Positions 18,307 through 56,742 of a stretch of DNA of 64,000 nucleotides are shown one piece after another. The DNA lies in NCBI GenBank assembly GCA_047967505.1, contig CM106538.1; one strand, given 5' to 3'. Position numbers and translations under genes: made by a program. This DNA comes from Dipteris shenzhenensis (taxonomy: Eukaryota). The notes beneath the pieces were generated by a model. That model was not told where the DNA came from. It was given only the letters and a program-made list of their open reading frames with translations, and did not search any database. Position 1 is the first letter of the stretch; every line of letters starts with the position of its first letter.

Positions 18307-20976
18307 CCCCCCCTCAATGTCCACCCGCAAGTGAACTTACTTTTTTGGCCCAATGCCAAGTCGATGAAGATGCCTCTCCAGCAAGTCTCTTCCAAGAGCC
18401 TTCGTGAAGATGTCCGCAGCATTCTCTGTAGTCGAACAATACACCAAGTCAACCTCTCCATCCATGATGAGCTCGTGTACAAAGTGATATTGAATCTCAA
18501 TGTGTTTTGTGCGAGCATGGAACACAGGGTTCTTTGCAATTGCCATGCAACTTTGATTGTCACATGATAACTGCATAGGCTTGTTCTGCACTGCACCCAT
18601 GTCCCCTAAAATCCTCCTCAACCACACTGCCTCACAAGAAGCAAAACATGCTAATTTTTGTACTCAGCCTCGGTAGAAGAAAGAGCAACTGTGGGTTGCT
18701 TCTTACTGACCCATGACACAGCTCCAGATCCAAGTGAGAAATAGTAACTTGTCCCTGATCTTCTGTTGTCCATGTCTCCTGCCCAATCCGAGTCAGAGAA
18801 TCCGTTCAAGATGTTGCCCTTGGTATAGGTGATGCCATAATCAAGTGTGCCTTTGATGTATTTCAGCACCCACATCCCTGCCCTCCAATGGTTCTCCCGA
18901 GGCTTATTGGAAAGCCTGCTTAGCACACCAATCGCAAAACTGATGTCCGACCACGTGTTGCACAAGTTGCCACAAGCCTTATGTACTTCGCTTCATCCAC
19001 CAATGGTGACGAATCCTCATTTGAGAGATTCTTATCAACCTCCATAGGGGTGCCAACTATCTTGCACTCAGCCATGCCAAATGCCTTCAATATCTCTCCA
19101 GCATACTTCAGCTGTGAGATAAAGATATGTTTTGGCTCTTGCCAAACTTCAATCCCCAAACAGAAACGCATCAGTCTGAGGTCTGTCATTTTAAACTCTC
19201 TTCCTAGCAACTGCCAAAGCTTCTGTCTCCATTTTTCCGCAGAGGTCCGTGTGAACGAGCTCTAGAGGAGCTTTGCCCTACTGGCCTCTTTAGGAAAGGG
19301 CTACCGATGCTGCTTGCCCATCATGCAAGCTTCACATACATCGGGCAGATCTATAATTTCTGGTAGGTCTGCAATCATTCCACTTTTATGCATCTCCTTT
19401 AAAGAACTAAGGTTTAGATGACCAAACCTCTCATGCCACAGCTTACTGTTGCTCACATCGGCTCGAGCACTGAATGCTGAGAGTTCGTAAATGTTGTTGC
19501 GCCGTGTACCTTTACCAAGGACCTTCCCTTGAAGATCCAAAATCTGTGCACCATTCTTATCGAAGTGAACTTTGAGGTCCCAATCCGTGATCACAGAAAC
19601 GGACAACAAGTTCCTCTTGATATCTGGCACATACAGAACATCGGACAACTGTTTTACAACTCCATCTGATTTGAGAGCAATCGTACCTTTTTCTTTTGCT
19701 GGACATTTTGCATCATTGCTGACTGCTACCAGGATGTCATTCCCTACCGGATGTAGAGAGGTATACCAATCCTTACGACTGGTCATGTGGCGCGATGCAC
19801 CACTATCAATAATCCATAGTTCTTCCGTAGGTACATGAACTGCCTCCATGCAAATCTCCTCAATTGCTACGAACAGCTCTACTGGTACTGCCTATGTGCT
19901 ATTGCTGGACTCTTTCTTTACTCTGTTCTTCTCATCTACAATCTTCTTTCGGCACTCATTTTGCTTGTGCCCTGCCTTGTTGTAATAGAAGCACTTGATC
20001 TTCTTCTTTCTCTTTTTATCATTAGAAGAAGATGGGTTACCAGCAAGAGGGAGCATAAACGGCCGCTGATGTTTTCCTCATCCAACTCAACTTAGCATGA
20101 GAGAGCACTATCCTCCATATAGTAGTGGCTGGCCGCTAGGCACCGTGGCGGCTCCTACGCCCAAAAAACGTTCCAAACACTCACGGTAGGTCAACCCTAA
20201 CGTGAGTCCTTACCCTTACCTTTCTTTGATCCAGTCGAGAAAGCCGAATCTTCTCCAGTCCTCATCTTTTGACGCATCCCTCCTCCAAAAGCATTGTGCT
20301 GAAATCCTCAAAGTTGAGGGGCAAATTTCTATTCTGCATATTCAGCGCCGTAACAAGACCATCATACTTTGGTGGGAGAATATGTATGCACCTTCGTGCT
20401 AGATTCTCGCTGGTGATGGTGATGCCAATCGCAGTCATCTGATCGCACAGATTCTTCACCCTAGTGATGAACTTCTCTGTCATTTCAGACTCAGACAGTT
20501 TCTCATTTGCGAGTTGAGTCTCCAGATTCTGAATCCATGTCTGATTCATGGTCTCATACTAATTTTTCAAGACTGTCCATGCCTCCTCCACTGTGGTGAC
20601 ATGTTGAATTAACACCATGACAGAGTCACTTACATTGCAAACAATATAACACAGCGCATCTGCATTTCTTCTTGTCCACACGAGAATCTCATCTGCAGTT
20701 GGTACTATCTGTTGTCCTGCATTGCCTAGATCCGGCCTCGCAACCGGCTTCACGTCCACCCCAGTAGCAGTATCCCAAAGCTCATATGCACTTAGGATGG
20801 TCTTCATCTTGAACTTCTAGAGTGGATAGTTAGTGCCGTCCAACTTTTTGCTTTCGCTGAACGGTGGGATTCACAGTCTTGCGAGTTGGGCCATCTCTCA
20901 GGCCATCTCTCACAATTTGGTTGTAAAGAGAAACACACTACCAAATCTTCTTGCTAGAGCCCAAGCTCTGATACCA

Positions 20977-29600: not shown

Positions 29601-32600
29601 CAATTGATAGTTCTTAGCACATCTTGTTGGGTTGACTCATCACCAAATAACCCTTTGTAAGTGTCTTGCATCCAGCTTTTACCAAGAATTTCCACTTCCA
29701 ATAAGGTACCTACAGGAGTTACAAAAAACTTGCAAGGCACAACGTAATTGTCCATGGAAACATTCAGCATTAAAGAACCAATAACCTTAATTGAGGTACC
29801 TCCTATGGATTGAACTTCAAAATCACAAACTTGGAGGAGTACCTGGCCGAGAGTTTTAATGTCTCTTAGGAGATGAGGTTATTGCTTGCTCACTAATTTG
29901 ACACGGCCTGTATTCGACATCTTGCACCTGCTAATGTCAGCTCTACCCAAAGTTGAGATGGGGTCATATCTATCTCATTAGGATCAATAACATTCTTATC
30001 AATGCAGGTTGAACTTGATTAGGTAGTACCGTTCTTATGGTGTTAAGAGGCATAATGGTAGAAGGTTTATCCTTGTCAAGGTGCATTGTTTGAGTGCCTT
30101 TAGTAGTTGGTAAATCAATTGTTGCCAGTATACATCCCATTTAGTGAGTCTTCTAGTTTCGGTAAAGGAGCATACCAAGAGTCTCCAAGACGAAAGTATT
30201 GGCCCAATTTGTTGATTGGATGCCTTGGAAGTTCTTGAGATTTATTGAGAGATTCAACATTCTTGGGATTAGTGGACTAGGGTGTCACTATTTGCCCATT
30301 CATCCAATCCAAGAGGTATCTCCATAGAGTAGGATTACCCCGTAATAGTGTTAAGATGGGCATCTTGATCTCAGTGGTGGACATGAATGAGGCTAATCTT
30401 GCAATTTCTTGAGGACTAGTGATAGGTTCCCTACCTATTGATTCTGCCTCTTCTAAGCCATATAAGGACATGTTGTCATCCTCCTTTAGTTGTTGCAAGG
30501 CGGGGTCTTGCATTAGGCCACTAAAGGTAGGTTTGGGGTTGCCCCAATCACTAGGTGGCTCTTCTGCCACCAATACTTGATGCAGGGGAGTACTTCATGG
30601 TGGTGGTTGTTGAGGTCCCAGTACTGGTGGGGGTAATGGAATATTTTGAGCCCTAAATTGCCCTTGATTGGCTGATGTGGCTTCTTGTATTACAAATTGT
30701 GCTTGATTGGACACATTGGGTGGTGCAGAAAATGTTAGCTGCAGCCTTTGTTGATACATGGTTTGAGGAATCACCCTAGGATAATGACATTTGGGATGTA
30801 TTATGATTTCAACTACACATCAGTCATCCTCTTGTGGGGTTCACATCATGAGTTCAGATGTTTTATCCTGGTTATATATACTCCTAAGGACTTAACCTCC
30901 TTTTGCTTCACCTCATAAAGATAGTTAATTCGGCTCCACTTGGGACCACTGGGGGCAAATCCCACAATGAAATATTTACACAATGTGTCCCAATTTATTT
31001 TGTCCTCAGGGTTTAAGGCTCTAAACCATTGTCCAGCCTTACCATCAAGACTCAAGCCAAAATCATTAACCTTGTCTAGATCTCCAATATCACTAAAGGT
31101 CTCACAGATTTGTTCAAATCTCTCAACATGGGAGACCGGGTCTCCTCCTACAAACTTGGTGATTAGCTTGAAGATTCTGAGAGGCTTGCTCCTTGAGGGG
31201 TTTGTATCCCTTCTTGGAAACATTGGTGGTGGAGTGGTGGCCCCCCTTCCTAGCGCTTACACTAGGATTCTCATAGCTTCATCCGTAATAAGGATTGTTT
31301 ACAGTATAGGAGGAGGTTGTGGAACAGTAGGCCATATCCCATACATTGGTGGTACTGATGAAGGGTTCCATGGATTTGATGGCACAAGGTTGGGATGAGA
31401 GGATCCATGCCCACTAGGCATTCACATTGTGACTTAGGTCAGGTTAGGCCTAACAGGTTGGACTGGAGGTCCTCTAGGGAGTTGTATGTTCCCTACGAGC
31501 ATAGGCCTATAAGGGGCAGTAGTTGGATAGGGAATATCTCCCATGTTTTGTTGCCAAGGAGGAATCATAGGGGCTTCTGAGGTGGAGGGTCGTAATTGTG
31601 GGCCTTCAATGCTGCTCCTCTGCCCCCTTTGATCTAGCATTTGGGACCCTTGTGAGAATTTGGCTCCAAATCCATCCCCATAGGATTTTCTATCATCAAA
31701 GAATTGGTACGATGGGGATTGATTACCAATAAGTATCGTGGGACTTGGTTCCCTGAGTATTTCTTCTGACATCGGTGGTTGGGCCAGCATTTGAGGCTTC
31801 GTCATTGCCCTAGTCTGCTCAACAAATGGGTTGACCATTTTTGCAGGTGGGTCACTGAGCCCAAACCTTCCTAGCATGTTTACAAATGACTCCCATATTT
31901 GAGATACTATGGAAGGAGTAGGTGATTGATGGTGTATGGAACTAAAGTTTGGAGCTACAAATGCTCTAAGGTTGGGATTTTCTCCCATCTCTGTGTCAAA
32001 ACTCATTGAATCTTCAGAGCTAGATGACTCAGGTCCACGCACTGAGTGGGCACTAAGTATTGAGGATCCTGACTGAATAGCTGTGAAACTTGGCACATAG
32101 CTAGACAAAACGTTGTTTGAGGCACTATCTTTGTGCTCTGGGTCAGCTCCTAGGATTCTTCTTGATCTCAAGTGCATCTGTTAGTCCTCGCTATTGATGC
32201 CCTAATTCTAGTTTGAGTCTGCCTCAACGCGGGGTCAAGGGTACTAGATTACACTTATATCCCTAATTTTCTTGATTTTTGTGTTCCCAAAGGTATCCCT
32301 CTAGATGGGGGTATAGAGCTAAGGCACCGACTAGCGGGATAGAGCTAAAAGACTGACGGGATAGATCTAAAGCAATGACCGACGGGATAGAGCTAAGGCA
32401 CCGACCCGAGGGGATAGAGATAAGGCAACGATCAGCAGGATAGAGTTAAAGCAATTACCCAGCAAGATAGTGCTGAGGCATCGACCCGGTGGGATAGAGC
32501 TAAGGTAATGGCCAACAGGATAGAGTTAAAGCAATGACTGACAGGATAGAGCTAAAGCAACAACGAGTTAAAGCACCGACTTGACGCGATAGTAGGTCAA

Positions 32601-33340
32601 CAGGATAGCGTTATGGCATCAGATCAATGCCTATTTGATCGGTGGGATAGAGCGAAAGCAACGATCGGTGGGATAGAGTTAAAGCAACAACCCGGCAGGA
32701 TAGTAAGTCGGCGGGATAGCATTATGGCATTGGATCAATGCCTGTTTGACCAGTGAGATAGTTGACTAATAGTAATTAATTAGGGCGACGGGTTAGGTAC
32801 TGGCATGTGTTAGTCCAATGGGATAGCATTATGGCATCAGGTCAATGCCTGTTTGACTAGTGGGATAGAGGCCTAAGGTGACGGGTCAGTGCGATACCGA
32901 GCTATGGTGACGGCGGGTCATGGGGATAGAAACTCACAATTCTGCCAACTAGTTTTTTATGATTTTGAAGTCTCTGTTCAGGTTTTTTTGTGATAGGCGG
33001 ATGCTAAATTACCTATTCTTCCTACTCTATGCAAGGAAGAAAAACAACATTTGAATGCAAATGAGAGATTTCTTGAAGAGGTGATTGTCAACACTCAAAA
33101 CCACTTCACTTTTCACCATGATTCCTCATTCTTGGTTGTTTTTTGTGAGTTTTGACATCATACGCTCCTTGGAAATCTTGCAAATTGTCTTCCTACCAAC
33201 TCAAAACACTAAAAAACATAAAAGCAAGCTTCAAATGATCCAAAAGGCTTTCCAAAAAGAAAATGATAGCTTCTTCTTTTCACTTCCTAAACTCACACTT
33301 CTCCACTCATTCCTCTCCTACAATTCCACTAACAAAGCTC
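26645..33340 (-). mobile_element. Degenerate Ty3/gypsy element retaining gag and protease only
   Basis: Retrotrans_gag-like ORF 30846-31223 (DPVSHVERFEQIC..LSLDGKAGQWF..WDTL). Decayed aspartic protease about 29650-29950 (..ILGKSWM). PPT-like AGGAAGGGGGGCA at about 27181-27193 next to a putative 3' LTR ending at 27180. No RT or integrase seen; outer boundaries approximate. Confidence 0.7.
32320..32930. repeat. Tandem repeats GGGATAGAGCTAAAGCA..CGAC in the gypsy leader
   Basis: More than 15 related units of 20-30 bp. Confidence 0.85.
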
Positions 33341-33768: not shown

Positions 33769-36480
33769 ATGAAGAGGCAAAGAACTAGTGAAGCTCAAAA
33801 AAATGGATGCATCCAATCTGACTATTGAAGAAGAACTTGAGAAGAAGTGATTGCACCATCTTCACATTGACTTAGAAGAAAAATATGCACCGGTGCAAAA
33901 ACGATGAAAAGGTCCACTTGTAAGTGCTAAGTAGAAGGAGAACATGAGAAGAGGAGGCTCGCAACACATTGACTTATGGTGCGATGGAAGCATCTACCTG
34001 ACATGTCCTTCAAAAAAACTCTACACCTCCATTTTCTAATCCCACATCGCTTTTAAGATTTGTGGGGGATGGAGCCAATAAATTGTATGGATACATTGGG
34101 GCTCACCAATCCAATATGGAAATGTACAAGATGCTATGTATGCAAGAGAGTACGGCAAAGATACAACAAATGGAGATTGTGTCAACTTTGACAGAGCAAC
34201 TACAAAGAGAAATCAAAGAGCACTCAAATACGAAGAAGGAGTTACGATGAGTAAGAAGGAAGAGAACAATTCTCAGGGAAAGACTACGAAACAAAATGAT
34301 TCAAAACATTGCAAAGTTGAAGGCTGGTAGTGGAGGATGCAAGCGTCGAATTCAACTAGTAAGGTAAGCAAACAGTTAATTTAATTTATCAATCCAATTC
34401 TCCAAATAGGATGTTCTTTATTCAATGATTCTTATTACAAGTGAAATTGGTATTGCATGTTTATTGTAGGAAAATATTAGGGCCTGCAAAGGAAAACATA
34501 GATAAAAGGATTGCTATCTAGTCATGTAGCAAAGGGATTGATTGAAGAGAAGAAGTTCAAAACAATATGATGGAATGTTGTGGAGGAATTCATATCCAAT
34601 AATAACGTTGACGTGGATACAATTCAAGAAGCTCTTGATGTCAATGGAGTCAACAAAAAAGGATATGCTTCAATTTACAATGCTCTCTCCTCTAACTTAA
34701 GAGATTAGAGAATCAAATGAGTGCTTCTACCCAGCCCAGCAGCTGTATGGAGAAAAAGAGGATTACTGAATACAGAAATAGATTAGTATATTGGACAATA
34801 AAACCATATTGAAGGGATCTATGATAGTAGTAAGGGAAGCACGGTGTATGATCCTTTTAATAATATTTTTGTGGACCTTAAACAAATGCAAAGAAGAATG
34901 GTAGAGTTTTATAATCTTTCATTCGAAGAATGCAAAGGTGTTTTGAAATTCGTTATCAAATTTGATGAGTGTGAGATTGTTAAGGGAAAAAAAAATTGAG
35001 TCACTGTTACCTTAATGAATTGAGCACTTGATACATCAATTATTGAATAAGACACAAGCTATTTTAGTGTGCAATCAGAAACATGTACGGTGGTTAGGCT
35101 CGTTTGAGGTATGCAAACATTCCATATTGTATAAGGCAATGCTCTTTTTTTCAATCCTAAGATAATCTTACAGTGTGAATTTTATTTTTCATAGGTCAAG
35201 ACAGAGGACCATAAAACTCTTTCTTGGGTTTTCCACCATACTGACATACCAACAATAATCAAGAGTCAAATTCAAGGTGAACATCTCCATGTTGCAGGCA
35301 AAGTGACTTTCAAGCAGAGTGGCATATGGCAGGTGATTTGAAAACGCTTAAGTGTATGTATAATGTAAGTAAAGGGGGAAATTCAAAGTCTCCTTGTCTG
35401 TATTGCAAAGAGCCAGCACATGTGATGGATCCTAAATGGTGGAAGAGAGCACCAAATAGAGACAAAGTAGATCCAGAATTTAAGGCTATTCTTGACATTC
35501 CATTAAGTAATGTTCATATATGCACATTGCATGCACTATGTCAGATTGTGGAGAAGTTGGTCTTTCTTTATATTGGATTTGCTTGGAAGCTTCATCCCAA
35601 AAGAAGTAGAAAACATGCTCTCCAAGCATTGGAGAAAGTGTTGTCTGATATGGGTCTCCATGGAGGCAATGTTCATATAACAAAGGATTTGAAAAAATCT
35701 ACAAATGGCAAAGAGGTACCAATCAAGCCATCTATTTGGTGGTGTCAAGGCAAGGAGATTTTTATCCCAGACAACAAACAAAAAAAATCAAGTGAATAAA
35801 TGCACAACACTTTCAAGGATAAACTATGGATTATGGAAGCAAGTCCATTATGTTGTTAAAGATCATGAGGCTGATGGGAAAGCATGGACTATCAAAGCAG
35901 AGGTGTGGAAGTCATTGGACAAACTCTTCATTTTTTGTGACAAAAAGGCATGGACAAAGAGTGATTACCAAGTTTTTAAGGAAGAGGTAAAAACATTTGG
36001 AAAGTCTATGAAAGAGGCTTGAACATCGTGCAACATAACTCATTATATGGTAACTATTAAAGTTTTCTTTCTTTCGTTATGCTTTTTTCATTTGTTTCTT
36101 CCACTGATACTTGCTCTTATAGTAGCTTATTATCTACAATCATCTTCCATATTTTCATTTAAAAATATGGTTGTCCAACAATTTGGTCCACACAAGGGAT
36201 GGAGAAATCACATTACACTGCCCATAACACCTTCTTTTGACACACACAACATTTTGGAGGAAGAGAGAAAGCAAACAACCTAAAAGAAGTATTTCAATGG
36301 TTTTATTGAGGTATACTACAAAGACTAAGCTCCAAGAGAAAAGTGAATACCTCACAAATTAAGTTAGCCTTTGCTTTGGCCCAAAAGCAAAGAAAGAATT
36401 AGATTTTGGACAACTCAAATGCCACAGAGAGACATGCCAAGAGGAGACATTCATAGATCTTTGTAAACCATAAGTGGATA
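33769..36480 (+). pseudogene. Intron-containing RAG1/Transib-like (CMC-Transib clan) DDE transposase, degenerate
   Basis: Assembled across frameshifts and three GT-AG introns (about 34364-34470, 35109-35194, 36049-36125): FVIKFDECE (D1), EWHMAGDLKTLK (D2), SPCLYC, VHICTLHAL, ITHYM/(H>L)IIYNHLPYF, WSTQGMEKSH (E). These parallel RAG1 KESCDG, DEKL, CTLC, ITNYFHKTLAH and WASEGNES. Confidence 0.7.
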
Positions 36481-37748
36481 GATAGATGCTAAATTTTAAA
36501 CAAACTTGTAACACAAAACCATTACAATTTATATATTGCTTGTGCAATGTACAATATCTTTCCGAACTTGTGAACTATTCTTCTACTGTATCAATGTCAC
36601 ACTTGTCTTCTGCTTTTTCTGCATCATCTTGCTTAATTGATTCGGCTCCTTCCATTTGAAACCCTTCACTTACTAATGGATTATCATGCTTGATTGGTTT
36701 GGCTCCTCCAATTTGAAACCCTTCACTTGCTAATGGTGGTTCTCTATATCTAAGAAGATGGTGCTTTCCATGAACATCTAGGCCCAAAATACTCTTGATT
36801 CCATGTGCATGAGCATATGATGTGTATGTAAGATAATATCCAACCCTATTGCAATCCCTGCCTGGATAGTAGCCAAAAGTGTGATAAGCAAAAAACTTTT
36901 CAATCAAAATGGCCTCTATTTGTTGGAACATTTCATGCCCACCCAAAAACCTGGACAAAGCTTTGAAAAACCAAACTACGATCTCCCCATCATTACTCAA
37001 TTGTCGATGAAAAACCAAAATCTTTGTAGTAGAGAGCTGGCTGATATAGTGGGAGAGGCTGGTAAGTCGCCCTAATCTCTCAGTTCCCCTTTCATGCCTT
37101 CGAAGGTAAGAATCATCTTCGACATTCAACTGCAAAAACCAAAATAATACAATTACATTTTTCACCTAAGATTAAGGAAAAATGAGATGACAAAAGAGAT
37201 AACTCACTTGTGGATTTTCATCTTCAACTAAAACTTTATCGATCCAAACGTTGATGCTGCTTTCTATGGAGATGTTGGGGCTTCTTTTTTGCTCCTCTTG
37301 CTTTCCCATTTTTTGTCAATCATAAGTTCTCTCTAAAGATGCTCAAAAGTCTCTTTATCAATGCCATATGAGTCCTTGAATTTCTTCACTTCTGTAAAGC
37401 ACATCGAAAACAATTCTTCTGAATTGAAGTTGTCCCTCTAATGATAGAGATTGATCCTCATTGGCAATAAAATCTCTTTCCAACAGGTAGGCTTGTGCAA
37501 TTATTGCCAATGCATAGTCCTCTCTCAAATCAAATATTGCCTGAATGTCACTAAGATGAACGTACTCAACATTGTCAATAAGGATAGAAGGCGGCAAGGA
37601 AATTGCATGGTTGCAGTTCTCCATATCAAGTCCTTTAATGTTTACTGGTCCTTTAATTGTATCTGCCCTGAGTGACACAACGTCTATTGTTGCAACTTTA
37701 GCCATGCAGCTTCAGCCATCTCATTTTTTAGATCAATTTCCTCCTTTG

Positions 37749-39903
37749 TGTGAAAGATCCAATATATGATCGCCACTAAGCCTAGTGCACACAAGATCAA
37801 CGGAAGAACTAAGGAGGCTCAAAGCACACTAGATAAGACATGAGAGGGAGATAGCAAATCTATATCTCTTGCAATGTGTATTCAACAATACATGATGGGC
37901 CTCTTATAAAGAGAGTGCCCTTTGAATAGTCAACCATGTGGGATCCTCTCATCCACATCTCTCCTTGTGGATATCCTCAATCCACATCTCCACATCATGT
38001 AGTCCACATCCTAGGGTGGCTACTTTAATTCTTTCCTATACCATACCTTAGCCTCTAATTATGTGCTCATGGCACCACAACTCTCAACACCTCCCCTTGG
38101 TGCCATGATCCTTTGGCTACTACAAGGTGGTCAGATGTGAGTTACATTCCATCACCTTCCCTTAGTGCATGCATTGCTACTTAAGGTGGTCAAGTGTAGT
38201 TTCTACATGTCAATACCTCCCCTAGGTGCTTTCATAGCTACTCTTAGGTGGTCAGGCTTGATTTACAAACATATGGGCTGAACGTGGCAAGGCTTTTTGC
38301 CTCTCAATACATTCCATTAATGTCACCTTTTGGCTCATGGCTTGATGATGATGGCATTTGCTGCTTTGCTTGGTGTAGCTTCATGCATGATGCTTTGTTC
38401 TTCCATGTGCCTTGATGCTTTATGTGTGGATGCCATGCTTTGTGCTATGGTCATCTCATGCACTTGTGCTTTCAGCATGCTTATTGCATTCATGTGTCGC
38501 TTTACCATTTGTTGCAAAGGTCTTTCTTCAATGGCAATGTCTAATTGCATACAATGATTCTGACTGGATAGGCGCGTAGAGCTCAAAAAGACAATTACTT
38601 TTCCTTTTTGGAGCATGTGCAAATTCTTCCTAGATTGCAAGTTACGCTTTGTTGAAGTTTTTGTGAAGAAGAGGGGGCCTGATGATGTGGCAGAGGGATT
38701 CACACGTTGCACTCACACTGTGCTTAGGAAGAGGGCTTAGGTGGCACTTAGCTAATCCTACCCTAACCATAAGCCTTAACCATGGTTTAACTTAACCTCA
38801 CCCAACCTTATCTACCACGTGGCATAGACTAGAGCACTGACCAAACCAACTAACCCAGGGTTGCTTTGAGCTAACCCAAGTCAAAGACTTATTTGCCATG
38901 TGTCAAATTGTGGTGAACCTTAGGGAAACTTTGTGGAGAAATTGAGAAATAGGGATGGTGTCGCGGTTTCGGAAGATCGTAGGGAGCTCGAAGGCGGTAA
39001 TGGAGAAGAAGTGCTATGCTTTGTTGTGGAAGAGCCGTGTAGAAGGCGCTTGCTGCTGTCGATGCTGGAGCCTTTGGAGGATCACTTTCGGCTATTTTAG
39101 GGTTGTGGACTAGAACCATGGTGGATTCCATCGCTGGTTGAAGGTGTTTGTAGGGAGGAGCTTGTAGGAGCGACTGATTCCAGGAGATCGCTTGCCATCA
39201 AGCTCAGCGGAGGTAATGTTGGAGATGATGATGATGACAGAGGCTTGGTTCCTACTGTTGGAAGCCTTGTTGCGATGGAGCGGCTAATCATTGGGACTGA
39301 GGCACTGCTGCCATCTGACTCTGTTATGTCATAGGTGATAAGGCCGCATGTGGCTAGTTGCTTTGTGCCTTGCTTGTTGCAAGAGATGGCTAGAGCCAGA
39401 CGTTGCTTGGCACTATAGATGGCTGGCGAGAGGCTTCGGCTATCACAGAGGGCCGTTGTAGAAGGCGAGGCTATCTACAGTGGGGTTGAGCATAGATTGT
39501 GTGTTGGTCGCTAAAGGTCGTCTATCTTAGGCTTGTCGTTGGAGGTCGCTCTAGCCACACTAGAGGTTATGGCTCTGGTAGTCGAGAAGTCTATCAGGAA
39601 TTCAGATTCAGAGGAAGCTTGAGCCAACCCAAAATCACAGATCTTTAGCATGCAGTCATTGCAATTCACAAGGATATTGCAAGTACTTCAAGCCTCTCTC
39701 TCTTTCTCTGTTAGTCGAGGATCACAGATCGGAAGAGCAATGCAACATTTCTTCTTTCCTCAAAGGAGAAAGTAGAATCCAATCCTAGCAAAACGACTCT
39801 CTGTGAGCTTTGGTCTTCCTATATAATGGTGTTCCCCCTTCTCCCTTCAGATCAAGCCAAGGTTCCTCTTTCCGCGGACCTCTATCTCAAAACTTGGGTT
39901 TGC

Positions 39904-39955
<52 letters not shown>

Positions 39956-40391
39956 GACTTAATGTCAAAAACTCTCCCTAACATCAAGATAAGAGGGTGC
40001 CACTCACTCTAAACTACCTAGGCTCGTGGGCAACCTATGCTCTGATACCATGTGAAAGATCCAATATATGATTGCCACTAAGCCTAGTGCACACAAGATC
40101 AACGGAAGAACTAAGGAGGCTCAAAGCACACTAGATAAGACATGAGAGGGAGATAGCAAATCTATATCTCTTGCAATGTGTATTCAACAATACATGATGG
40201 GCCTCTTATAAAGAGAGTGCCCTTTGAATAGTCAACCATGTGGGATCCTCTCATCCACATCTCTCCTTGTGGATATCCTCAATCCACATCTCCACATCAT
40301 GTAGTCCACATCCTAGGGTGGCTACTTTAATTCTTTCCTATACCATACCTTAGCCTCTAATTATGTGCTCATGGCACCACAACTCTCAACA
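37749..40391 (-). mobile_element. Young non-autonomous LTR retroelement (copia-derived, TRIM/LARD-like)
   Basis: 341-bp LTRs at 37749-38089 and 40051-40391 with one mismatch seen. TSD CTTTG/CTCTG, iMet PBS 40039-40050, PPT 38090-38100. The 1.96-kb interior lacks gag-pol apart from a faint RNase H-like trace near 38280-38400. Confidence 0.93.
39906..39952. repeat. (CT)n microsatellite
   Basis: About 23 CT units. Confidence 0.97.
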
Positions 40392-41461
40392 CTCTGCATC
40401 TTGCTCATGCTCAGAGTCAACTTGAGAAAGCTATATTGTATCCATGCTCTCTTTCAATACCTCTTCTTCAGGTTGAGTTGTCTCCATGTTATAGAAATTA
40501 AGGTACATGACAAAAGCCATACTCTCCTCTAGAAGCCTACACTTTTTATTTTGCATAGTGCATTTTTCTTTCAAGTGCTCTAGAAATAAGTCATATCTCT
40601 TGGCCATATAACTTCTAGTATTATTTGTAGTAGCAACATCCTTTAGAGGTGAATATAGGGCTTACTTTCTATAACAACTTTTCCATCCCTTGTCAGAGTA
40701 TCAAACCCTTCATAATACTCTGCCAAAATGTCATAGTGTTGTGACATTATATCTGAGTAATTTAGACTCTTATTGAACATCTCATAAAAAATATGACACT
40801 CCTGATGTGCATTGGACTTGTGGAGAAATTCAAACAACATCTCATTGGAAGACTTCTTCTCCTCCCTTTGAGGACTACTTGATGGCTCCGCAAATGTCAT
40901 TTGCAGAGATCTTCTTTCTACTGGTGCCGTCACATAAGTTCTTTGCAAATTTACTGCACCATACTATGTGTGTTGAAATGCAAATGTGATTACATAATTG
41001 AAAGTAAATTTTTGCACCATATGTTGAAATATCAATGTGAACAATAATTGAAAGAAAGACCTTAAAATCGTAATTATTCGACATACCTGGGTTGCAAGTT
41101 CTCATGGCAAATTTTCTCACACTCCGCTTTCTAGTTGTTTTAATATTGTCAACTTCACATGGTCAAGCCAAAAAACAAAGAATAGCATTAGCAAACAAAA
41201 AATATTCAAAAAATACTTAATGATTTTAGCTATTCCTAACATATTCTGAGTGACAAAGAGATAGCCACAAAAGAGTGTTGAATCTACTTCATATGTCCAC
41301 TGATTTGAGTTTCTTTACAAAAAGGATCATGTATAACATGCCATGTGTCACAAAAGAATCTAAAAGGATTACGTGTGAACTCTAGAAAGGAGAGTCCATA
41401 AAAATTATCTTCATGTCATGACATGAAGGAGTGTTTGAAAACATAACAAGTGACTCACTTG

Positions 41462-43057
41462 GAGGCAGTCAATAGAGCGAGCGAGAAAAAGCGAGCAAGC
41501 CCAAAAAAGCGAGCGACAATTAGTTAAAGTGATTGGAAAATCAAGCAAGCAAAGAAAGAATCTAAGTTTTTTATAAATAATTGCTTGAAGTATAAAGTAT
41601 TCAAAAGAGTGGTTATGTGTCACATTTCTTAAAATTGAGTAGTCTAAAGTTAAGGACTATTGTAACATGACCCCATTTGGGTTTGGCAATTGTCCTGGGG
41701 GGTCACTCATAAACATGTAACATACCACTTTTGTGCATTGAGGGGTATTTTTTAGTGGGGGGACTTACATGTTGTTTGTGTGCATGAGGGGATTTATAAA
41801 ATAGCAACTTAATGTAATTTATATATGTAGATATTTTAAAATATAAACACATACATGGGTTCAACCATTTACATGACAAAATGTAAATTGCAAGAACAAG
41901 GGTAATTTTTAATACATTCTTGCTTGCACATGCTTTATGGGTTTATGAAGAGTGATCCCCAGAGTGTAATTAAAAGGTAGAGGATGTTAAATTTTTGCCA
42001 AAATAGACAGTGTCTTCTCGCTCCCCATTATGGGAAACCTTGCTTTAAACTTGGTGTAAAAAATTGGACAGAATCTCACAAAATTCATATTCTGATGCAC
42101 ACAATTTTTTTAGATGGTGCAAAAAGGCATGATATTGATCTAAATCATGCCTTGTCATTTGATTTGATATGTAACATTATGCCATTTATATTTGACAATA
42201 AAAAGATGTAGGGATGTTAAAACTCATCTTTTGGGCCAAAAAAATCATATGTTGACATCTTGCAAAAAATACAGAGATGTGAAAATGCCCTCTTTTGGGC
42301 CAAAACAGGGAGCGTGTTATTTTGGCCCAAAAGAGGGCATTTTCACGTTAACACACTCCCTGTTTTGGCCCAAAAGAGGGCATTTTCACATCCCTGTATT
42401 AACGCGCTCCCTGTTTTGGCCCAAAAGAGGGCATTTTCACATCCTTGTATCTCTTGATTTACAAGTCCAAACAAGGTCATGTTACATATCAAATCAAATG
42501 GCAAGGCGTACTTTAGATGATTATCATGTCTTTATGCACCATCTAGTAAAATTTAATGCACCAAAATATGAATTTGTGGTTAATTTGTTGCATTAGTGGG
42601 AAGGATATTTTTCCAGTAAAAACAAAGAAACATGGGTTTCATTCCAAGAGTGAATAGAGTTAAAAAAGCTAAGCATTTACATATGCATGGAATTTAGACT
42701 AATCCATGCAAGGAGTCCTTAGAAACATCCCACCTGTGTGGAAGGTTGCATTGATGATCTCAATTACTCTAGTGGAAAGAGAGAACTTGATTGCAGTTAC
42801 TGTAGGGTTTGTCTTCAATACAAACAATGAATTGGAAATTGAACATACAAACTATCTCATGGATGATGTGAAATTAGTGTTAGTGGCTCAGAAAGTTATA
42901 TACGTATTTAACCTTCTAGCATTGAGGAAACATATGGACTTTTGAATAAGTTATTATTTTTTGCTACTGAAATGGGGGATTTATAAATCTTATTGTTTTT
43001 TATTGCTCGCTTTTTTTGGCTCGCTCGCTTTTGGTTGCTCGCCTTTTGGTAATCCTC
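41462..43057. mobile_element. Non-autonomous foldback DNA transposon with GAGG termini
   Basis: TIR pattern GAGG-N11-GCGAGC..AAAAGCGAGC..AAAAAAGCGAGC at both ends, 5-bp direct repeat ACTTG on both flanks, internal palindrome about 42075-42590. Confidence 0.7.
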
Positions 43058-46063: not shown

Positions 46064-46490
46064 ATGGCAAGGATCAAATCTACAGCGAGAAAACATGGAA
46101 AAGGTCCTGACATCGTAGTAGTTGCTGCCAAAGTAGAAGCATCTCAAAGCGGCTGTCACCAAAGAAAGGGTAAATCAGTGCATATACTCAAGCAAGCTAA
46201 ACTAAGGAGGTTTAAGCAAAAAACATTAGCACTAAGAGAGATTAGACAAGCATAATTGGCCATGGGATTTGCTATCCCAAAAGCCCCATTCCAAAGGCTT
46301 GTCAAGAGAATTTGTGTTGAAGATTGGAATCTTGAACATCGATGGCAGAGAACAGCTTTGTATACTCTTCAAGAAGCTGCTAAATATTATATGATAGAGT
46401 TTTTTCAGGATGGAATGCTTGTAGCTGCCCATGCACATAGAGTCACACTGATGGTTAAAGATATTGAGACAGTGAAGAGGGTAAGATATA
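46064..46490 (+). pseudogene. Divergent histone H3 / CENH3-like histone-fold domain (in-frame TAA at 46253)
   Basis: MARIKSTARK...RRFKQKTLALREIRQA*LAMGFAIPKAPFQRLVKRICVEDWNLEHRWQRTALYTLQEAAKYYMIEFFQDGMLVAAHAHRVTLMVKDIETVKRVR aligns end to end with H3. The stop lies at the conserved Gln of KYQ. A probable 5'-UTR intron spans about 45782-46048. Confidence 0.92.
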
Positions 46491-46679
46491 GATATGACAA
46501 GCTCCTTCATCCCATTGATTGGGTGGATAAAAAAATGAGACATCTCGACAGCCAAAGGATGAGGGCATTCAATACAAGAAGTGACACACAACAGAGACAC
46601 AAGGGCCAAGGCTGCCCATGAAGAGTACATTGCACTGGAAAGGGAGAAAAGCAACTAGCAATTTGTTCATGAGAACTTT

Positions 46680-49220: not shown

Positions 49221-52200
49221 TGTAAAGAATAAGGGAGAGAGATAGGAGACTCAAGTTCAGCTTTCTTCAACAACACACAAAAGAGAGAGGACACAAGGTT
49301 GGAGGGTGAAGCCTTTCTTCACTTTTGCACACAACAACAATACAATAGAAGAGGGAAATACCCTATATGTCAAAACCTAGAATACGTGGTTCATATGTGA
49401 ACCCAAACCAAAAACATACGTGGTAGTCTAACTACACCACGAGTACAACTAACATAGGCGGTGACATAAATGATAGTCACCCAGGAGATATGTCGGGGAT
49501 AGAGCTTGATATCTCAACACTCCCCCTCAAGCTCAAATCCATCTCACGTACACCAAGCAAGCTTCTAAATCTGCAAAGCTTCTCGGTACCCAATGCCTTC
49601 GTAAAGATATCAGCCACCTGCTCCTCAGTGCTGACATAGACAAGATCAATCTCACCAGCTAGAACCTTCTCTCTCACAAAGTGATAATGCACCTCAATGT
49701 GCTTCGTTCTAGCATGATAAACTGGGTTATTAGCAAGCATGATGCTGCTAATGTTGTCACAATGAATGACAACTGCTGCATGAACTGACTGTCCCATATC
49801 TGCAAGTAGCTTCCGTAACCAAGCTACCTCACATGCAGCCATTGCTGCACCCCTGTACTCTGCCTCTGTGCTCGACAAGGCAACTGTTGGCTGCTTCTTG
49901 CTGCTCCAACTGATGGCACCACTCCCAAGGGAAAACATAAAACCACTAGTAGATCTCCTGTCTGAGACACTACTAGCCCAGTCAGCATCTGTGTATCCAT
50001 GTACCTGTAATGCACACCTAGCTTCATAAAACAGTCCATAATGCAATGTGGACTTCACATACCGCAGTATGCACCTAGCCGCATCCAAATGTGGCTTCCT
50101 CGGTGCCTGCATAAACTGACTCACCAGCCCCACAGCATAGCTCAAATCTGGCCTGGTTATAGTCATGTAAATCAAGCTACCTACGATGCGCCTGTACATA
50201 GTAATATCTTCAAGAAGCTCACCTGACTCTGCATTGAGCTTCACATTCTGCTCCAATGGAACAGAGATAGGCTTACAGCCTGTCATCCCATATTTGGACA
50301 GCATGTCCAAACCGTATTGCCTTTGCAATAGCCATATCCCACTCGGGGATCTAATAACCTCAATGCCCAAGAAGTAACGCAGCTCTCCCAAATCCTTCAT
50401 CTCAAATTTCTGCTTCAACAGCAGCTTCACTTCATTAATGTCTGCATCACTATCACCTGTAATAATCAAGTCATCAACATAGATGACTATAAGCACAATC
50501 CCTCTGTTTGTCCTTTTCACATAAAGTGAAAAATCTGAGTTGGAAATTTGAAATCCAATAGTGACAAGATATTGCCCTATCTTGTCTGACCATGCCCTCG
50601 GCGCCTGTTTTAAGCCATACAAGGCTTTGCGCAACCTGCATACAAAATTGGGATGTGCATTATCCTCATAACCTTTTGGCTGCATCATATAAACCTCTTC
50701 CTGCAAATCACCATGCAAGAAGGCATTTTTCACATCCATCTGATGCAAAGACCATCCCTTTGCAGCAGCCATAGCAATTACTGCTCTCACGGTTGCCATC
50801 CTTGCAACTGGGCTGAAAGTTTCCTCATAGTCAATTCCATATGTCTGTGCAAAACCTTTGGCAACCAATCTTGCCTTGTACCTGCTAACAGACCCATCAG
50901 CATTGTGCTTTACTTTGTAAACCCACTTGCAGCCAATAGCCTTCTTATCATGAGGCAAAGGCATCAAATCCCAAGTGTGGTTTGCATCCAAGGCAGCCAT
51001 CTCTTCATCCATAGCTGCTTCCCAATTTTTATGCCCTGCTGCATCCTCAAAACATGTGGGCTCTGGCTCCTCTAGAACCTTGACCATATAAGCATAGTGA
51101 TGTGCTGTATACCCATCATATCTCAGCCTGTCAACTGGATACTTAATACGAGTGGATTTCCGTACAACTGGATCAGTTGCAGGAGTCTTTAAATCATGCC
51201 TGCTTTTCCTTGCACCAGGTGTAACAACAGAAGGAATCCCAAGTTCCTCATCAAGGCTCATTTCAGAGCCACTTGACTCTCCATCAACATGAGAGCTACT
51301 AGCAGACACATCAAACACTGGAGCATGGTCCACTTTTTCTTTTCCCTTATGTGATACCTGCACAACACTATCAGGACTGCCATGTGACGATTCACTAGAT
51401 CTCAATCTCCCTGTCCATGCATTAGATCCACTAGTAGAGGACTCTCTGGGTCCAGTCAAGGCTTGAGATTGCTGCTCTGCATTTATTGCAGCATTCCCAT
51501 TTCCTGCATCTGCATCTCCTACCATAACAGTTGGTGCATACCAGCTGCTCATTTCATCAAAAACAACATCTCTGCTCACTTGCATTTTGCGGGTGGAAGG
51601 GTTATAACAGCGATACCCTTTCTGGTGCTGAGCATATCCAATAAAGATGCATTTTTCTGCCTTTGGATCCAGCTTTGTTCTCTTCTCATCAGGAACATGA
51701 ACATAAGCTATGCAACCAAATACCTTCAAGTGAGAAATATCTGGTTTTTGGCCTGTATACATTTCTTCAGGCGTCATGCCATGGACAGCTGCAGTGGGGG
51801 TTCTGTTCATAATATAAACAGCAGTTGCTACTGCTTCAGCCCAAAAATAATCAGGCATGTTTTTCTCATTTAGGATCGCCCGTCCTACTTTTGCAATATG
51901 CCTGTTCTTCCTTTCTGCAACCCCATTCTGCTGAGGGGTAGACCTGCATGAGTACTTCCTTTGAATTCCCTGTTCTTTCAGATATTCACAAAATTCTTCT
52001 GAAAAGTACTCTCCCCCTCCATCAGATCTTAGCACTTTAATATGCACACCTTTCTCTTTTTCAACCATGGCCTTAAAAGCCTTGAAATGGCTGAACACTT
52101 CACTTTTGTGCTTCATAAAATAAATCCACACCTTCTTAGTGTAGTCATCAATAAACGTCACATAATAATGGCATCCACCAATAGAAGCAGCTTTGGTTGT

Positions 52201-54708: not shown

Positions 54709-56742
54709 GCAGTGTATCTTGATTGTTCTGTCATCCATTGTGATGGCTTCGGCATCAGAGAATGCATTGTTTAACATTGAGAAGCTGGATGGCACAAACT
54801 TCTCCTATTGGAAGGAGCAAATCTACAATGTCCTTGTGCAGAAGAAGCAAGTAAAGCCTATAAAACGCAAAGGCATAAAGCTAGAGGATTAGGAAGATGA
54901 TGAAGAGTGGAAGGAATTGGATGAGCTTGCATGCTCCACGATCATGCTCACACTTTCAAAATCGGTGTATTTCAATATGAAAGATATTGCAGGTGGTGCC
55001 TATGGTGTGTGGACAAAGTTGCATGATCTTTATGAGAAGCAGAGTGCCGCTTATCAAGTGTATTGGCTGAAGAAACTCATAGATCTTCGCATGGAAGAAG
55101 GGACTTCAATGTCTAGCCATTTAAATGAGTTTAACACAATTTTCAGTCAACTTTCAGATCGGAAAATTACCTTTGATGACTCAGTTAAGGCAATGTTCTT
55201 ATTGGTCACTCTTCCTAAAAGTTAGGACACTTTTAGGACTCATATAAGCAATTCAGCCCGTGCAGGAGACCTGACAAGCAATGATGTTGAGAGTAGCCTT
55301 CTCACTGAGGAGGTAAATAGAAAGAACAATGCTGGAGCTAAAAGTTCAAGTGCTCTCAATGTGAGAGGGAGGTCATATTCCAGGGGGAAATACCACGACA
55401 AAAATACAAGCAAGTCTAGAAGCAAATCTAGAGGAAAATCCCATGCGAAAAAGGATTTGGAATGCTTCTATTATGGGAAGAAAGGCCATTTCAAACAGGA
55501 TTGCTACAAATGGAAGAACAATAAAGGCAAAGGCAAAGCTAATGTGCAACCCAAGAAGGAAGAAAAATCTACGGTCAATATAGAGGAAGTGAATGTCATA
55601 AGTAATAATAGTGATGAGGGTGACATTCTTTATGCCTCTATGTTTGAGCATGCTTTTCTTGTGACTAGTGATGATGCATTGTCACAGAATTGGATACTAG
55701 ACTTAGGAGCATCTTTCCATGTCACTCCACATAGGGAGCAATTTACCATTTATGATGAAGGAAGAAAAGGAACCGTGAGACTTGGAAATGATTATCCATG
55801 TGACATTGTTAGAGTGGGAGATATCCACTTGTCTCTTCCTAATGGTTCTACATTTGTATTCAAGAATGTATGGCATGTTCCAAATCTGAAAAAGAGCTTG
55901 ATAAGTACGAGACAGCTTGATAATGATGGCTATCATGTGTTTTTTGGCAACAATACATGGAAAATTAGCAAAGGGTCACTTGTGATTGCTAGAGGTTCCA
56001 AGCATGGAACATTGTACTCAATGCATGTGTCCTGGGCATAAGAGATAATGTAATCAATGTGACCGAGCAGCCATCCATCTCTTTGTGGCATCATCGATTG
56101 GGACACATGAGCATGACAGGAATGAAGATACTTTCTGGTTTGTAGTATGTTCCCGTGTTACTTTTCATATTTTAGCATGTGTGAGCATTGCATGTATGGG
56201 AAGCAAACACAGTCTTCACATAAAAAATCTTTAGGCAAGAAGAGGCTTGAACCATTGGAGTTGGTTCACAGTGATGTGTGTGGACCTATGCCTACTGTCT
56301 CATTGGGTGATGCTTCTTACTTTGCTACTTTCATTGATGATGCTACACGGAAAGTGTGGGTCTATCCTCTTTGGAAGAAGAGTGATGTCTTTTATGCATT
56401 TCAAAAGTTCTTAGCATTTGCTAAAAATCAGTTGGGCAAGAAGCTCAAATGCTTGCACACTGATAATGGAGGAGAGTATACCTCTCATGCATTTAAGAAT
56501 TTTTGTGAGCTACGTGGCATCAAGCAGGAGTTGACTACTCCTGAGAATTCTTCTCAGAATGGGGTTGCTGAGAAGATGAATAGAACTATTCAAGATATAA
56601 GCATGCTTTCTAATGCCGGTACCTCATGGCTTTTAGGCTGAGTCTATCAAGACAACAGTACATCTTATCAATAGATCGCCTAGCAAGGCACTAGATGGGA
56701 AAGTGCCAAAAGAGGTTTGGTCAGGAAAGCCACCATCTTATG

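What the first reader, a model, noticed from the sequence alone, without database searches (positions are those of the whole stretch)
33769..36480. RAG1/Transib-like transposase in a plant genome
Seen: D..D..E motifs with CxxC and HxxxxH zinc ligands (AGDLK, CLYC, ICTLH, ITHYM-xIIYNH, WSTQGMEKSH) in the order and context of RAG1/Transib rather than the DYPA/D.MH.EKN pattern of plant CACTA. Established: Transib/RAG-like elements are mainly described in animals. Inference: a little-characterised plant branch of this clan, with spliceosomal introns.
Basis: partly seen in the sequence, partly recalled or inferred. Interest (0 to 1): 0.72.

Follow-up and report, generated by a model that had tools for sequence, protein, structure and literature searches.

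The report
Decayed RAG1-like transposase gene, fern-type transposon
The flagged stretch is a dead copy of the cutting enzyme of a little-known plant jumping gene whose enzyme folds like the antibody-gene recombinase RAG1, and relatives of this element also carry a partner gene and their own histone H3 gene.

Summary
The motifs are real. Window 33851-36480 (+) is a full-length but dead transposase gene with at least 3 frameshifts and several stops. Its family has no Pfam match: not CACTA Transposase_21, not the RAG1 domains.

An AlphaFold model of an intact relative (P0022) matches only RAG1, amphioxus RAGL and HzTransib strongly (Foldseek E down to 5.5e-10; VIA Z 11-17). The next fold is P element transposase at Z 9. 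A language-model search ranks RAG1/Transib clusters first (0.94-0.97) and CACTA and Plavaka next (0.87-0.89).

All eight residues that define the CMCT clade are present: D, D, E, CxxC, LH, HxxxxH. Family profiles do not find RAG1 or HzTransib by sequence. The ends and target duplication could not be found, and RAG1-like fold hits are reported for other CMCT lineages too.

So this is a deep plant branch of the CMCT clade, nearer to RAG1/Transib than to CACTA. It is not shown to be a Transib, and it may be the moss superfamily Lanisha.

New here: the element has several genes. A partner ORF lies tail-to-tail in the window and beside the transposase in 12 of 26 related contigs. A histone H3 variant gene follows the transposase in 5 of 26 contigs and lies nearby in the window.

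The parts
33851..36480 (+). Transposase pseudogene. It covers the full length of the family protein and is broken by at least 3 frameshifts and several stops.
   Evidence: tblastn of P0022, P0014, P0010, P0001 and P0075; three-frame reading and motif coordinates.
34964..34966 (+). First catalytic Asp (KFDE). An in-frame stop follows at 34997-34999.
35335..35337 (+). Second catalytic Asp (AGDLK).
   Evidence: D508 is invariant in 24 of 24 rows of A1; coordinates.
35395..35406 (+). CxxC (CLYC), 20 residues after the second Asp. Inferred to be half of a C2H2 zinc site.
35515..35532 (+). HICTLH block, the clade's [M/L]H motif.
   Evidence: H586, C588 and H591 are invariant in A1 and A2; coordinates.
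36050..36125 (+). GT..AG intron of 76 nt between THYM and the HxxxxH exon. Its position is conserved in the family.
   Evidence: In A1, 18 of 24 database proteins end just after THYM. In 20 of 22 loci the sequence is broken just before the first His.
36126..36143 (+). Degenerate HxxxxH (LIIYNH). The first His is lost.
36202..36204 (+). Catalytic Glu (WSTQGMEKSH).
   Evidence: E785 is invariant in A2; coordinates.
36734..37705 (-). Partner gene ORF2, middle and C-terminal parts, tail-to-tail with the transposase gene. It carries the motif YVHLSDIQAIFDLREDYALAIIA and the C-terminal domain.
   Evidence: Alignments A3 and A6; tblastn of ORF2 from six loci.
40449..40963 (-). ORF2 N-terminal part. 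It is separated from the rest by about 2.7 kb (37706-40448) of unrelated sequence, probably a later insertion.
   Evidence: tblastn.
46064..46621 (+). Histone H3 variant gene (MARIKSTARK...) with one in-frame stop at 46253-46255. It is probably cargo of the same element; that it lies inside the element is not shown.
   Evidence: Pfam PF00125, E 2e-18; reading. It is 44% identical to the H3-like part of the Adiantum gene model P0084, which is joined to a transposase fragment.
32313..32930 (+). Array of about 26-bp repeats (GGGATAGAG...) lying 0.9-1.5 kb upstream of the transposase start. Possibly subterminal repeats; membership is uncertain.
   Evidence: 31 matches against 11.4 expected, and 0 of 100 shuffles reach 31.
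42081..42575 (.). Cluster of palindromes between the ORF2 start and the H3 gene. Comparable palindromes lie upstream of ORF2 in L003, L006 and L014. Membership is uncertain.

Best explanation
Window 33851-36480 is a decayed copy of the transposase gene of a multi-gene cut-and-paste DNA transposon family. The family is found in ferns and in environmental eukaryotic contigs.

The enzyme is a DDE transposase of the CMCT clade (CACTA/EnSpm, Mirage, Chapaev, Transib, RAG1 and others). It has an RNase H-like catalytic core and a C2H2 zinc site built from CxxC after the second Asp and HxxxxH before the Glu, as in RAG1. By fold and by language-model features it is nearer to RAG1/Transib than to CACTA. 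By sequence it is too far from both to be detected, so it is a separate deep lineage, possibly the moss-described Lanisha.

Inferred mechanism: the transposase binds the element's ends and excises and reinserts the element through the DDE site. The partner protein ORF2 and a histone H3 variant carried by the element act as accessory factors, in end recognition and in the element's own chromatin respectively.

Shown: homology, fold, motifs, gene neighbourhood and decay of this copy. Inferred: catalysis, zinc binding, and the roles of ORF2 and H3. The ends are unknown.
For: 1. Family. There are 37 relatives at E<=1e-3, and 1162 cluster representatives at E<=1e-3, of which 147 reach E<=1e-30. Named hits are four Adiantum nelumboides gene models.

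2. Fold. The AF2 model of P0022 has mean pLDDT 72.4. In Foldseek against PDB, all 35 listed rows up to E 1.7e-3 are RAG1 (30), BbRAGL (1) or HzTransib (4), and the next row is at E 0.059. In VIA, ranks 1-35 are the same three proteins. RAG1 reaches Z 17.1 with 427 residues aligned (453 at most, 4wwx_B), model 243-802 on RAG1 459-979. BbRAGL reaches Z 15.6 and HzTransib Z 15.0. P element transposase follows at Z 9.0 and Hermes at about 6.

3. ESM Atlas. The nearest clusters are RAG1 fragments (0.97, 204-206 of 256 features), then DUF1280 and arthropod or cnidarian clusters carrying RAG1_RNase_H or DUF1280 on 12-16% of members. With those families removed, the next named clusters are Transposase_21 (0.88-0.89, 128-142 features) and Plavaka (0.87).

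4. Clade residues. D, D, E, CxxC, LH and HxxxxH are all present. The spacings are D1-D2 90-106 aa, D2-E 251-278 aa, D2 to CxxC 20 aa, and second His to E 19-20 aa. RAG1 has D603, D711 and E965 (PMC1131882).

5. Zinc ligands behave as one unit. Of 13 informative rows of A2, 10 have both CxxC and HxxxxH, 3 (P0132, P0135, P0166) have neither, and none has only one.

6. No CACTA signal. Pfam finds nothing for the window pieces or for 14 relatives.

7. Multi-gene element. ORF2 homologues lie beside the transposase gene in 12 of 26 loci (11 convergent, 1 on the same strand) and in the window. H3-like genes (PF00125, E 3e-18 to 6e-34) follow the transposase gene in 5 of 26 loci and occur in the window.
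Against: - Profiles of the family (A1, A2) find no RAG1 or HzTransib chain, even at E 10. Pfam's RAG1 domain models do not match.
- No CACTA/CMC structure appeared among the PDB matches, and I recall none being solved. Being nearest to RAG1 in the PDB therefore cannot separate Transib from other CMCT lineages. ESTA transposases also hit RAG1 by HHpred (PMC12730594). An earlier scan note (e1-1911866) says that models of other transposase families match about as well.
- The Atlas ranking is not a phylogeny and was run on part of a protein.
- The catalytic Glu (785) lies in a low-confidence stretch of the model (777-832), because few alignment rows cover it.
- No terminal inverted repeats or target duplications were found, so mobility and element limits are not shown.
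- The window's H3 gene is 5 kb from the ORF2 start and may lie outside the element.
- The ORF2 model is poor (pLDDT 47).
Confidence: 0.72

Rival explanations
1. It is a member of Lanisha, the cut-and-paste superfamily named in 2020 from the moss Ceratodon purpureus. The family would then already be known, though barely described.
For: Lanisha is a CMCT lineage reported from a land plant. It shares the 2C+3H motifs, and it is uncertain whether it lies inside or outside CMC (PMC12730594, passages; PMC8245031, passages). The family here occurs in non-seed plants (Adiantum) and matches no Pfam family.
Against: Lanisha is described as 'showing similarity to EnSpm', whereas no Transposase_21 signal is found here. 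No Ceratodon protein was named among the hits. The Lanisha sequence (GenBank MT647524) could not be fetched.
Confidence: 0.35
2. It is a true Transib superfamily element, with 5-bp target duplications and RSS-like ends beginning CACAATG. It would simply be very diverged.
For: RAG1, RAGL and HzTransib are the best and only strong fold matches. The Atlas ranks RAG1/Transib clusters first. The D2-E distance of 251-278 aa resembles that of RAG1 (254 aa). Transib-like proteins have been reported in plants (PMC9435367).
Against: There is no profile-level similarity to RAG1 or HzTransib or to Pfam's RAG1 models. The element has several genes and spans at least 7 kb, against 3-4 kb and a single gene for Transib. 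Ends and target duplication were not found.
Confidence: 0.2
3. It is a very diverged CACTA/EnSpm element. The partner gene would play the part of TnpA and the 26-bp array that of subterminal repeats.
For: It is a plant host with a two-protein element. A repeat array lies upstream at 32313-32930. After RAG1, the next Atlas neighbours are Transposase_21 clusters.
Against: No Transposase_21 hit appears in any of the 14 relatives or the window pieces scanned, including at E up to 10 for the five relatives. The Atlas scores for CACTA clusters are clearly lower (0.88-0.89 against 0.94-0.97). In this clade the partner gene is convergent, not co-linear.
Confidence: 0.1
4. Part of the family has been adopted by the host. 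This applies to the intronless P0022/P0072 type with an H3 gene directly downstream, not to the window copy.
For: The clusters of P0022 (25 members) and P0072 (62 members) hold several full-length proteins of nearly equal length, 886-901 aa. L001 and L002 keep the order transposase then H3 at 67% DNA identity, and the similarity ends at the H3 stop.
Against: There are no organism names, no synteny data and no selection test. L001's H3 gene has a stop. The window copy itself is dead.
Confidence: 0.1

Closest known systems
RAG1 / RAG1-like (ProtoRAG BbRAGL) and Transib transposases (HzTransib)
   Same: - Best fold match over the whole core, from the dimerisation and DNA-binding domain to the C-terminal domain (Z 15-17).
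- DDE triad with similar spacing.
- CxxC about 20 residues after the second Asp, and HxxxxH 19-20 residues before the Glu.
- In the window's clade, a convergent partner gene, the orientation described for RAGL (PMC7204232, abstract seen in the listing).
   Different: - No sequence-profile similarity.
- The partner ORF2 has no Kelch or RAG2 Pfam match, and its low-confidence model is mostly helical.
- The elements are larger and carry an H3 gene.
- A 5-bp duplication and RSS-like ends are not shown.
CMCT clade as defined by Kojima 2025 (EnSpm/CACTA, Mirage, Chapaev, Transib, Plavaka, ESTA, Lanisha, RAG1)
   Same: All eight conserved residues of the clade (D, D, E, 2 Cys, 3 His) are present in the right order.
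   Different: The clade's usual 5'-CA..TG-3' termini and 2-5 bp duplications could not be checked. The family matches none of the Pfam models for the clade's members.
Lanisha (Maumus, McDaniel and Carey 2020; Ceratodon purpureus)
   Same: It is a CMCT lineage of a non-seed land plant with an uncertain place in the clade.
   Different: Its sequence and structure could not be seen, so identity is neither shown nor excluded.
RAG1-like, histone-carrying transposons of Naegleria gruberi
   Same: A RAG1-like transposase gene beside an H3 variant gene and paired palindromes of about 80 bp (notes seen). Here, H3 genes lie beside the transposase gene in 5 loci, and two 80-nt palindromes occur in L003.
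   Different: No sequence comparison was possible, and the word look-ups with P0022, P0135 and P0166 found nothing. One of those notes was later marked 'part of it fell'.

Membership tests
CMCT clade of DDE transposases | [quoted passage not shown] | tested here: met
   A1 and A2. CxxC and HxxxxH are present in 10 of 13 informative rows and both absent in 3. HxxxxH is present in 22 of 22 loci that show the E motif.
CMCT clade of DDE transposases | Termini 5'-CA..TG-3' and target duplications of 2-5 bp. | tested here: inconclusive
   No terminal repeats were found in the window or in 9 long loci. The copy is decayed and the contigs are short.
Transib superfamily | Transposase recognisably similar in sequence to Transib and the RAG1 core. 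| tested here: not met
   There is no Pfam RAG1 domain hit. Profiles A1 and A2 find no RAG1 or HzTransib chain at E<=10.
Transib superfamily | RAG1-type fold of the core. | tested here: met
   Foldseek E 5.5e-10 to 1.7e-3; VIA Z 11.2-17.1. The model is a prediction (pLDDT 72.4).
Transib superfamily | 5-bp target duplication and 38-bp ends with a CACAATG heptamer (PMC1131882). | tested here: inconclusive
   Ends were not found.
Transib superfamily | Autonomous element of 3-4 kb with one transposase gene (PMC1131882). | tested here: not met
   ORF2 lies beside the transposase gene in 12 of 26 loci and an H3 gene in 5 of 26. In the window the genes span at least 33851-40963.
CACTA / EnSpm | Transposase matching Pfam Transposase_21 (PF02992). 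| tested here: not met
   No hit for the window pieces (E<=1) or for 14 relatives (E<=10, 0.1 or 0.01).
CACTA / EnSpm | CACTA termini, 3-bp duplication and subterminal repeats. | tested here: inconclusive
   There is a 26-bp repeat array on one side only. Termini were not found.
RAG-like (RAGL) transposons | RAG2-like Kelch-propeller partner gene. | tested here: inconclusive
   ORF2 has no Pfam match at E<=0.1. Its model is mostly helical but of low confidence (pLDDT 47). The best VIA match has Z 5.3.
Lanisha | Similarity to the Lanisha transposase (GenBank MT647524; Repbase). | not testable with these tools

The most novel reading that the evidence does not exclude
A deep, eukaryote-wide lineage of RAG1-fold transposons stands beside Transib/RAG inside the CMCT clade. 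It travels with its own histone H3 variant and a dedicated partner protein. Ferns and other non-seed plants hold many copies, and protist forms have lost the zinc site. The element would build or mark its own chromatin with the H3 variant, a strategy not found in print in my searches.
Probability: 0.3. Interest if true: 0.8.

Novelty: new variant of a known kind. Interest (0 to 1): 0.58.

Why it matters
RAG1, the enzyme that assembles antibody genes, came from a transposase. How wide and how old that enzyme type is remains under discussion.

A plant branch with the full RAG1-type core, including the zinc site, widens the picture beyond animals. It also gives a new set of sequences for rooting the CMCT clade.

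If the histone H3 and partner genes are true cargo, this is a case of a DNA transposon bringing its own nucleosome protein. That bears on how transposons deal with host silencing.

For genome annotation, the family is currently invisible to Pfam and gets merged into host gene models, as seen in four Adiantum models.

Tried and rejected
- Pfam on window pieces and relatives gave nothing relevant.
- PDB sequence searches, with single proteins and with profiles, gave no transposase.
- No whole genome is held for this window.
- Sequencing runs: none was listed and no RNA holder was listed.
- Terminal repeats were sought in five ways, and nothing was above chance:
  - inverted repeats in window 26-44 kb
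  - inverted repeats in 9 long loci
  - left flank against the two candidate right flanks
  - all-against-all DNA comparison of loci, looking for shared ends
  - the reverse complement of the left repeat unit, which was not clustered on the right
- ORF2:
  - the homologue search found only itself and one 359-aa relative
  - the model was of low confidence
  - the wide structural search gave a best Z of 5.3, which I treat as noise
  - no RAG2 or Kelch match was listed, and this is not evidence that the folds differ
- MAFFT alignments A4 and A5 of ORF2 were misaligned and were not used.
- Supplements: 'Lanisha' and family motifs were absent from the held text of PMC12730594. The Lanisha description and the CMCT tree may lie there.
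- Yuan and Wessler 2011 is not held.
- Histone genes as DNA-transposon cargo were sought in the literature. One search found 0 papers, and searches listed nothing on this in title or abstract. One paper, opened, covers reader-domain capture only.
- Look-ups in the earlier findings by sequence gave nothing.
Full report
**What is there**

tblastn of five database relatives covers residues 3-889 of the 898-aa protein P0022 over window 33842-36480. The closest relative, P0001, gives E 1e-129 at up to 86% identity. The window holds only this one copy.

The copy is dead:
- The frame changes near 35302, near 35738 and between 36155 and 36181.
- In-frame stops lie at 34997-34999, 36020-36022, 36238-36240 and 36307-36309, and there are more in the N-terminal part.
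- The first His of the HxxxxH motif is now Leu.

A 76-nt GT..AG intron lies at 36050-36125, between THYM and the HxxxxH exon.

**The family**

The 172-aa open stretch found 37 longer relatives. An intact relative, P0022, found 26 more. The only named ones are four gene models of the fern Adiantum nelumboides, in which fragments of this protein are merged with unrelated domains.

A profile search of 1.84 billion cluster representatives found 1162 proteins at E<=1e-3 and 147 at E<=1e-30. Most are fragments.

In alignment A1, 18 of 24 proteins end just after THYM. This is what a prokaryote-style gene caller does when it meets an intron. In the related contigs, 20 of 22 loci that show the Glu motif are broken just before the first His, and 2 (L001, L002) are continuous. 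The intron position is therefore conserved, and an intronless subgroup exists.

**What kind of enzyme: sequence searches**

Sequence methods are silent.
- Pfam gives no transposase family for the window pieces or for 14 relatives. There is no CACTA Transposase_21 hit and no RAG1 domain hit.
- Single proteins and two family profiles find no transposase among PDB sequences, even at E 10.

**What kind of enzyme: structure**

Structure gives a clear answer. An AlphaFold2 model of P0022, built with alignment A1, has mean pLDDT 72.4, and the core from 365 to 776 is mostly at 70-96.

Foldseek against the PDB lists 35 rows up to E 1.7e-3:
- 30 are RAG1
- 1 is amphioxus BbRAGL
- 4 are HzTransib

The next row has E 0.059.

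VIA-align on the same candidates:

| Match | Z | Residues aligned |
|---|---|---|
| RAG1 | up to 17.1 | 427 at Z 17.1; up to 453 (4wwx_B, Z 16.8) |
| BbRAGL | 15.6 | 433 |
| HzTransib | up to 15.0 | 387 |
| P element transposase | 9.0 | 320 |
| Hermes | about 6 | about 240-285 |

The RAG1 alignment runs from model residue 243 to 802 and from RAG1 residue 459 to 979.

The ends of these alignments (802-804 on 978-981) give an offset that puts E785 within one residue of position 962, which I recall as the catalytic Glu of mouse RAG1. However, E785 lies in a low-confidence stretch of the model (777-832), so I do not lean on this.

**What kind of enzyme: language-model features**

The ESM Atlas feature search agrees with the fold result, and it is the only test here that ranks CACTA against RAG1.
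- The nearest clusters are RAG1 fragments (0.96-0.97, 200-206 of 256 features).
- Next come DUF1280 clusters, then cnidarian and arthropod clusters in which 12-16% of members carry DUF1280 or RAG1_RNase_H.
- With those families excluded, the next named clusters are Transposase_21 (0.88-0.89, 128-142 features) and Plavaka (0.87).

**Motifs**

The family has D, D, CxxC, (C)xLH, HxxxxH and E in that order. In intron-free proteins the spacings are:
- D1 to D2: 90-106 aa
- D2 to E: 251-278 aa
- second Asp to CxxC: 20 aa
- second His to Glu: 19-20 aa

For comparison, the RAG1 triad is at 603, 711 and 965, and the Transib D2-E distance is 206-214 aa (PMC1131882, passages).

A divergent group, probably from protists, lacks both CxxC and HxxxxH but keeps D, D and E (P0132, P0135, P0166). 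Among 13 informative rows of A2, 10 have both motifs, 3 have neither and none has only one. This is one evolutionary event, so it is weak evidence, but it fits the four residues forming one zinc site.

**Why this is not enough to call it Transib**

- Kojima 2025 shows that EnSpm/CACTA, Mirage, Chapaev, Transib, Plavaka, ESTA, Lanisha and RAG1 all share the same three catalytic and five Cys/His residues. He groups them as the CMCT clade and reports that ESTA transposases hit RAG1 by HHpred (PMC12730594, passages and figure legends).
- RAG1, RAGL and Transib are, as far as the PDB search shows, the only solved members. Any CMCT lineage may therefore land on them.
- Transib proper is a 3-4 kb single-gene element with 5-bp duplications and CACAATG ends. 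None of these features could be confirmed here, and the single-gene feature is contradicted.
- Transib-like proteins in plants are already in print: 39 proteins (PMC9435367, passages).
- A plant CMCT superfamily, Lanisha, was named from the moss Ceratodon in 2020 (PMC8245031 and its preprint, passages). I could not obtain its sequence or description.

**A multi-gene element: the partner gene ORF2**

A scan of metagenome contigs returned 26 loci. Downstream of the transposase gene, 11 loci carry a convergent ORF and one (L017) carries the same ORF on the same strand. The 11 convergent loci are L003, L005, L006, L008, L009, L010, L011, L013, L014, L018 and L026.

The window has the same gene tail-to-tail. 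Its middle and C-terminal parts are at 36734-37705 (-) and its N-terminal part at 40449-40963 (-). About 2.7 kb of unrelated DNA lies between them.

ORF2 has conserved blocks: VH..D...C..H...C, then Y.LL.DIQ.LF.LREDY.LA..A, then LPTEEEF, then a C-terminal domain of about 130 aa. It has no Pfam match, only one database relative, a poor model (pLDDT 47, mostly helices) and no meaningful fold match (best Z 5.3).

**A multi-gene element: the histone H3 variant**

In five loci an H3 variant gene follows the transposase gene on the same strand within a few hundred bases. These are L001, L002, L016, L021 (N-terminal tail only, then the contig ends) and L022. Pfam Histone scores range from E 3e-18 to 6e-34, and L002's copy is intact at 168 aa.

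L001 and L002 are 67% identical in DNA from the transposase gene through the H3 gene, and the similarity stops at the H3 stop codon.

The window has an H3 variant at 46064-46621 (+) with one in-frame stop. It is 44% identical to the H3-like part of Adiantum gene model P0084. It also shares with that model an extension beyond the histone fold, and in P0084 this part is joined to a transposase fragment.

Whether the window's H3 gene lies inside the element is not shown.

Earlier notes of this scan describe RAG1-like transposons of Naegleria with an H3 variant and paired palindromes of about 80 bp. L003 has two 80-nt palindromes upstream of ORF2, and the window has a palindrome cluster at 42081-42575. 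I could not compare the sequences, and those notes are unchecked.

**Ends**

No terminal inverted repeats or target duplications were found. A 26-bp repeat array at 32313-32930 may be subterminal, but it has no mirror on the other side.

**Surroundings**

The window is rich in transposons. It holds Copia-type polyproteins, one of them intact at 1467 aa, and a gag remnant just upstream. Together with the Adiantum hits, this suggests a fern or other non-seed plant. That is an inference.

**Verdict**

This is a RAG1-fold, zinc-site DDE transposase of a poorly known plant lineage. It is not CACTA by any test I could run, and it is closest to RAG1/Transib by fold and by learned features.

Membership in Transib is not shown. 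One defining feature (recognisable sequence similarity) and one typical feature (a small single-gene element) are not met. The safest filing is a deep CMCT-clade lineage that may equal Lanisha.

The gene set of transposase, ORF2 and H3 variant is the most interesting new point.

Noticed in passing
window 49480-53880 (-): An intact 1467-aa Copia-type polyprotein ORF with gag, protease-like barrel, integrase and RVT_2 domains. It is possibly a young, active retrotransposon.
   Followed up: no
window 54893-62428 (+), 18923-19891 (-), 30849-31256 (-): Further decayed Copia-type pieces and retrotransposon gag pieces. The gag remnant at 30849-31256 and the ORF at 31437-32180 lie just left of the repeat array.
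   Followed up: no
window 37706-40448: About 2.7 kb splits ORF2 and is unrelated to the other copies. It includes a (CT)23 run at 39906-39952 and is probably a nested insertion.
   Followed up: partly
window 41477-41519 and 43000-43042: A 43-nt inverted repeat pair (84% complementary), 1.5 kb apart, brackets the palindrome cluster at 42081-42575. It may be a small non-autonomous element.
   Followed up: no
P0132, P0135, P0166 (database proteins): A divergent intronless group of the family has acidic C-terminal tails and has lost both CxxC and HxxxxH, while keeping D, D and E. The host is unknown.
   Followed up: partly
L017:1937-3094 (+) and L016:3699-4436 (+): Within one clade, the gene that follows the transposase gene differs. 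It is an ORF2 homologue in L017 and an H3 variant with a long N-terminal tail in L016. Gene order therefore varies between close relatives.
   Followed up: partly
P0082-P0085 (Adiantum nelumboides gene models): Fragments of this transposase are merged into host gene models that carry unrelated Pfam domains (MFS/PTR2 transporter, histone, RVT_2). The family seems to contaminate fern gene annotation.
   Followed up: no
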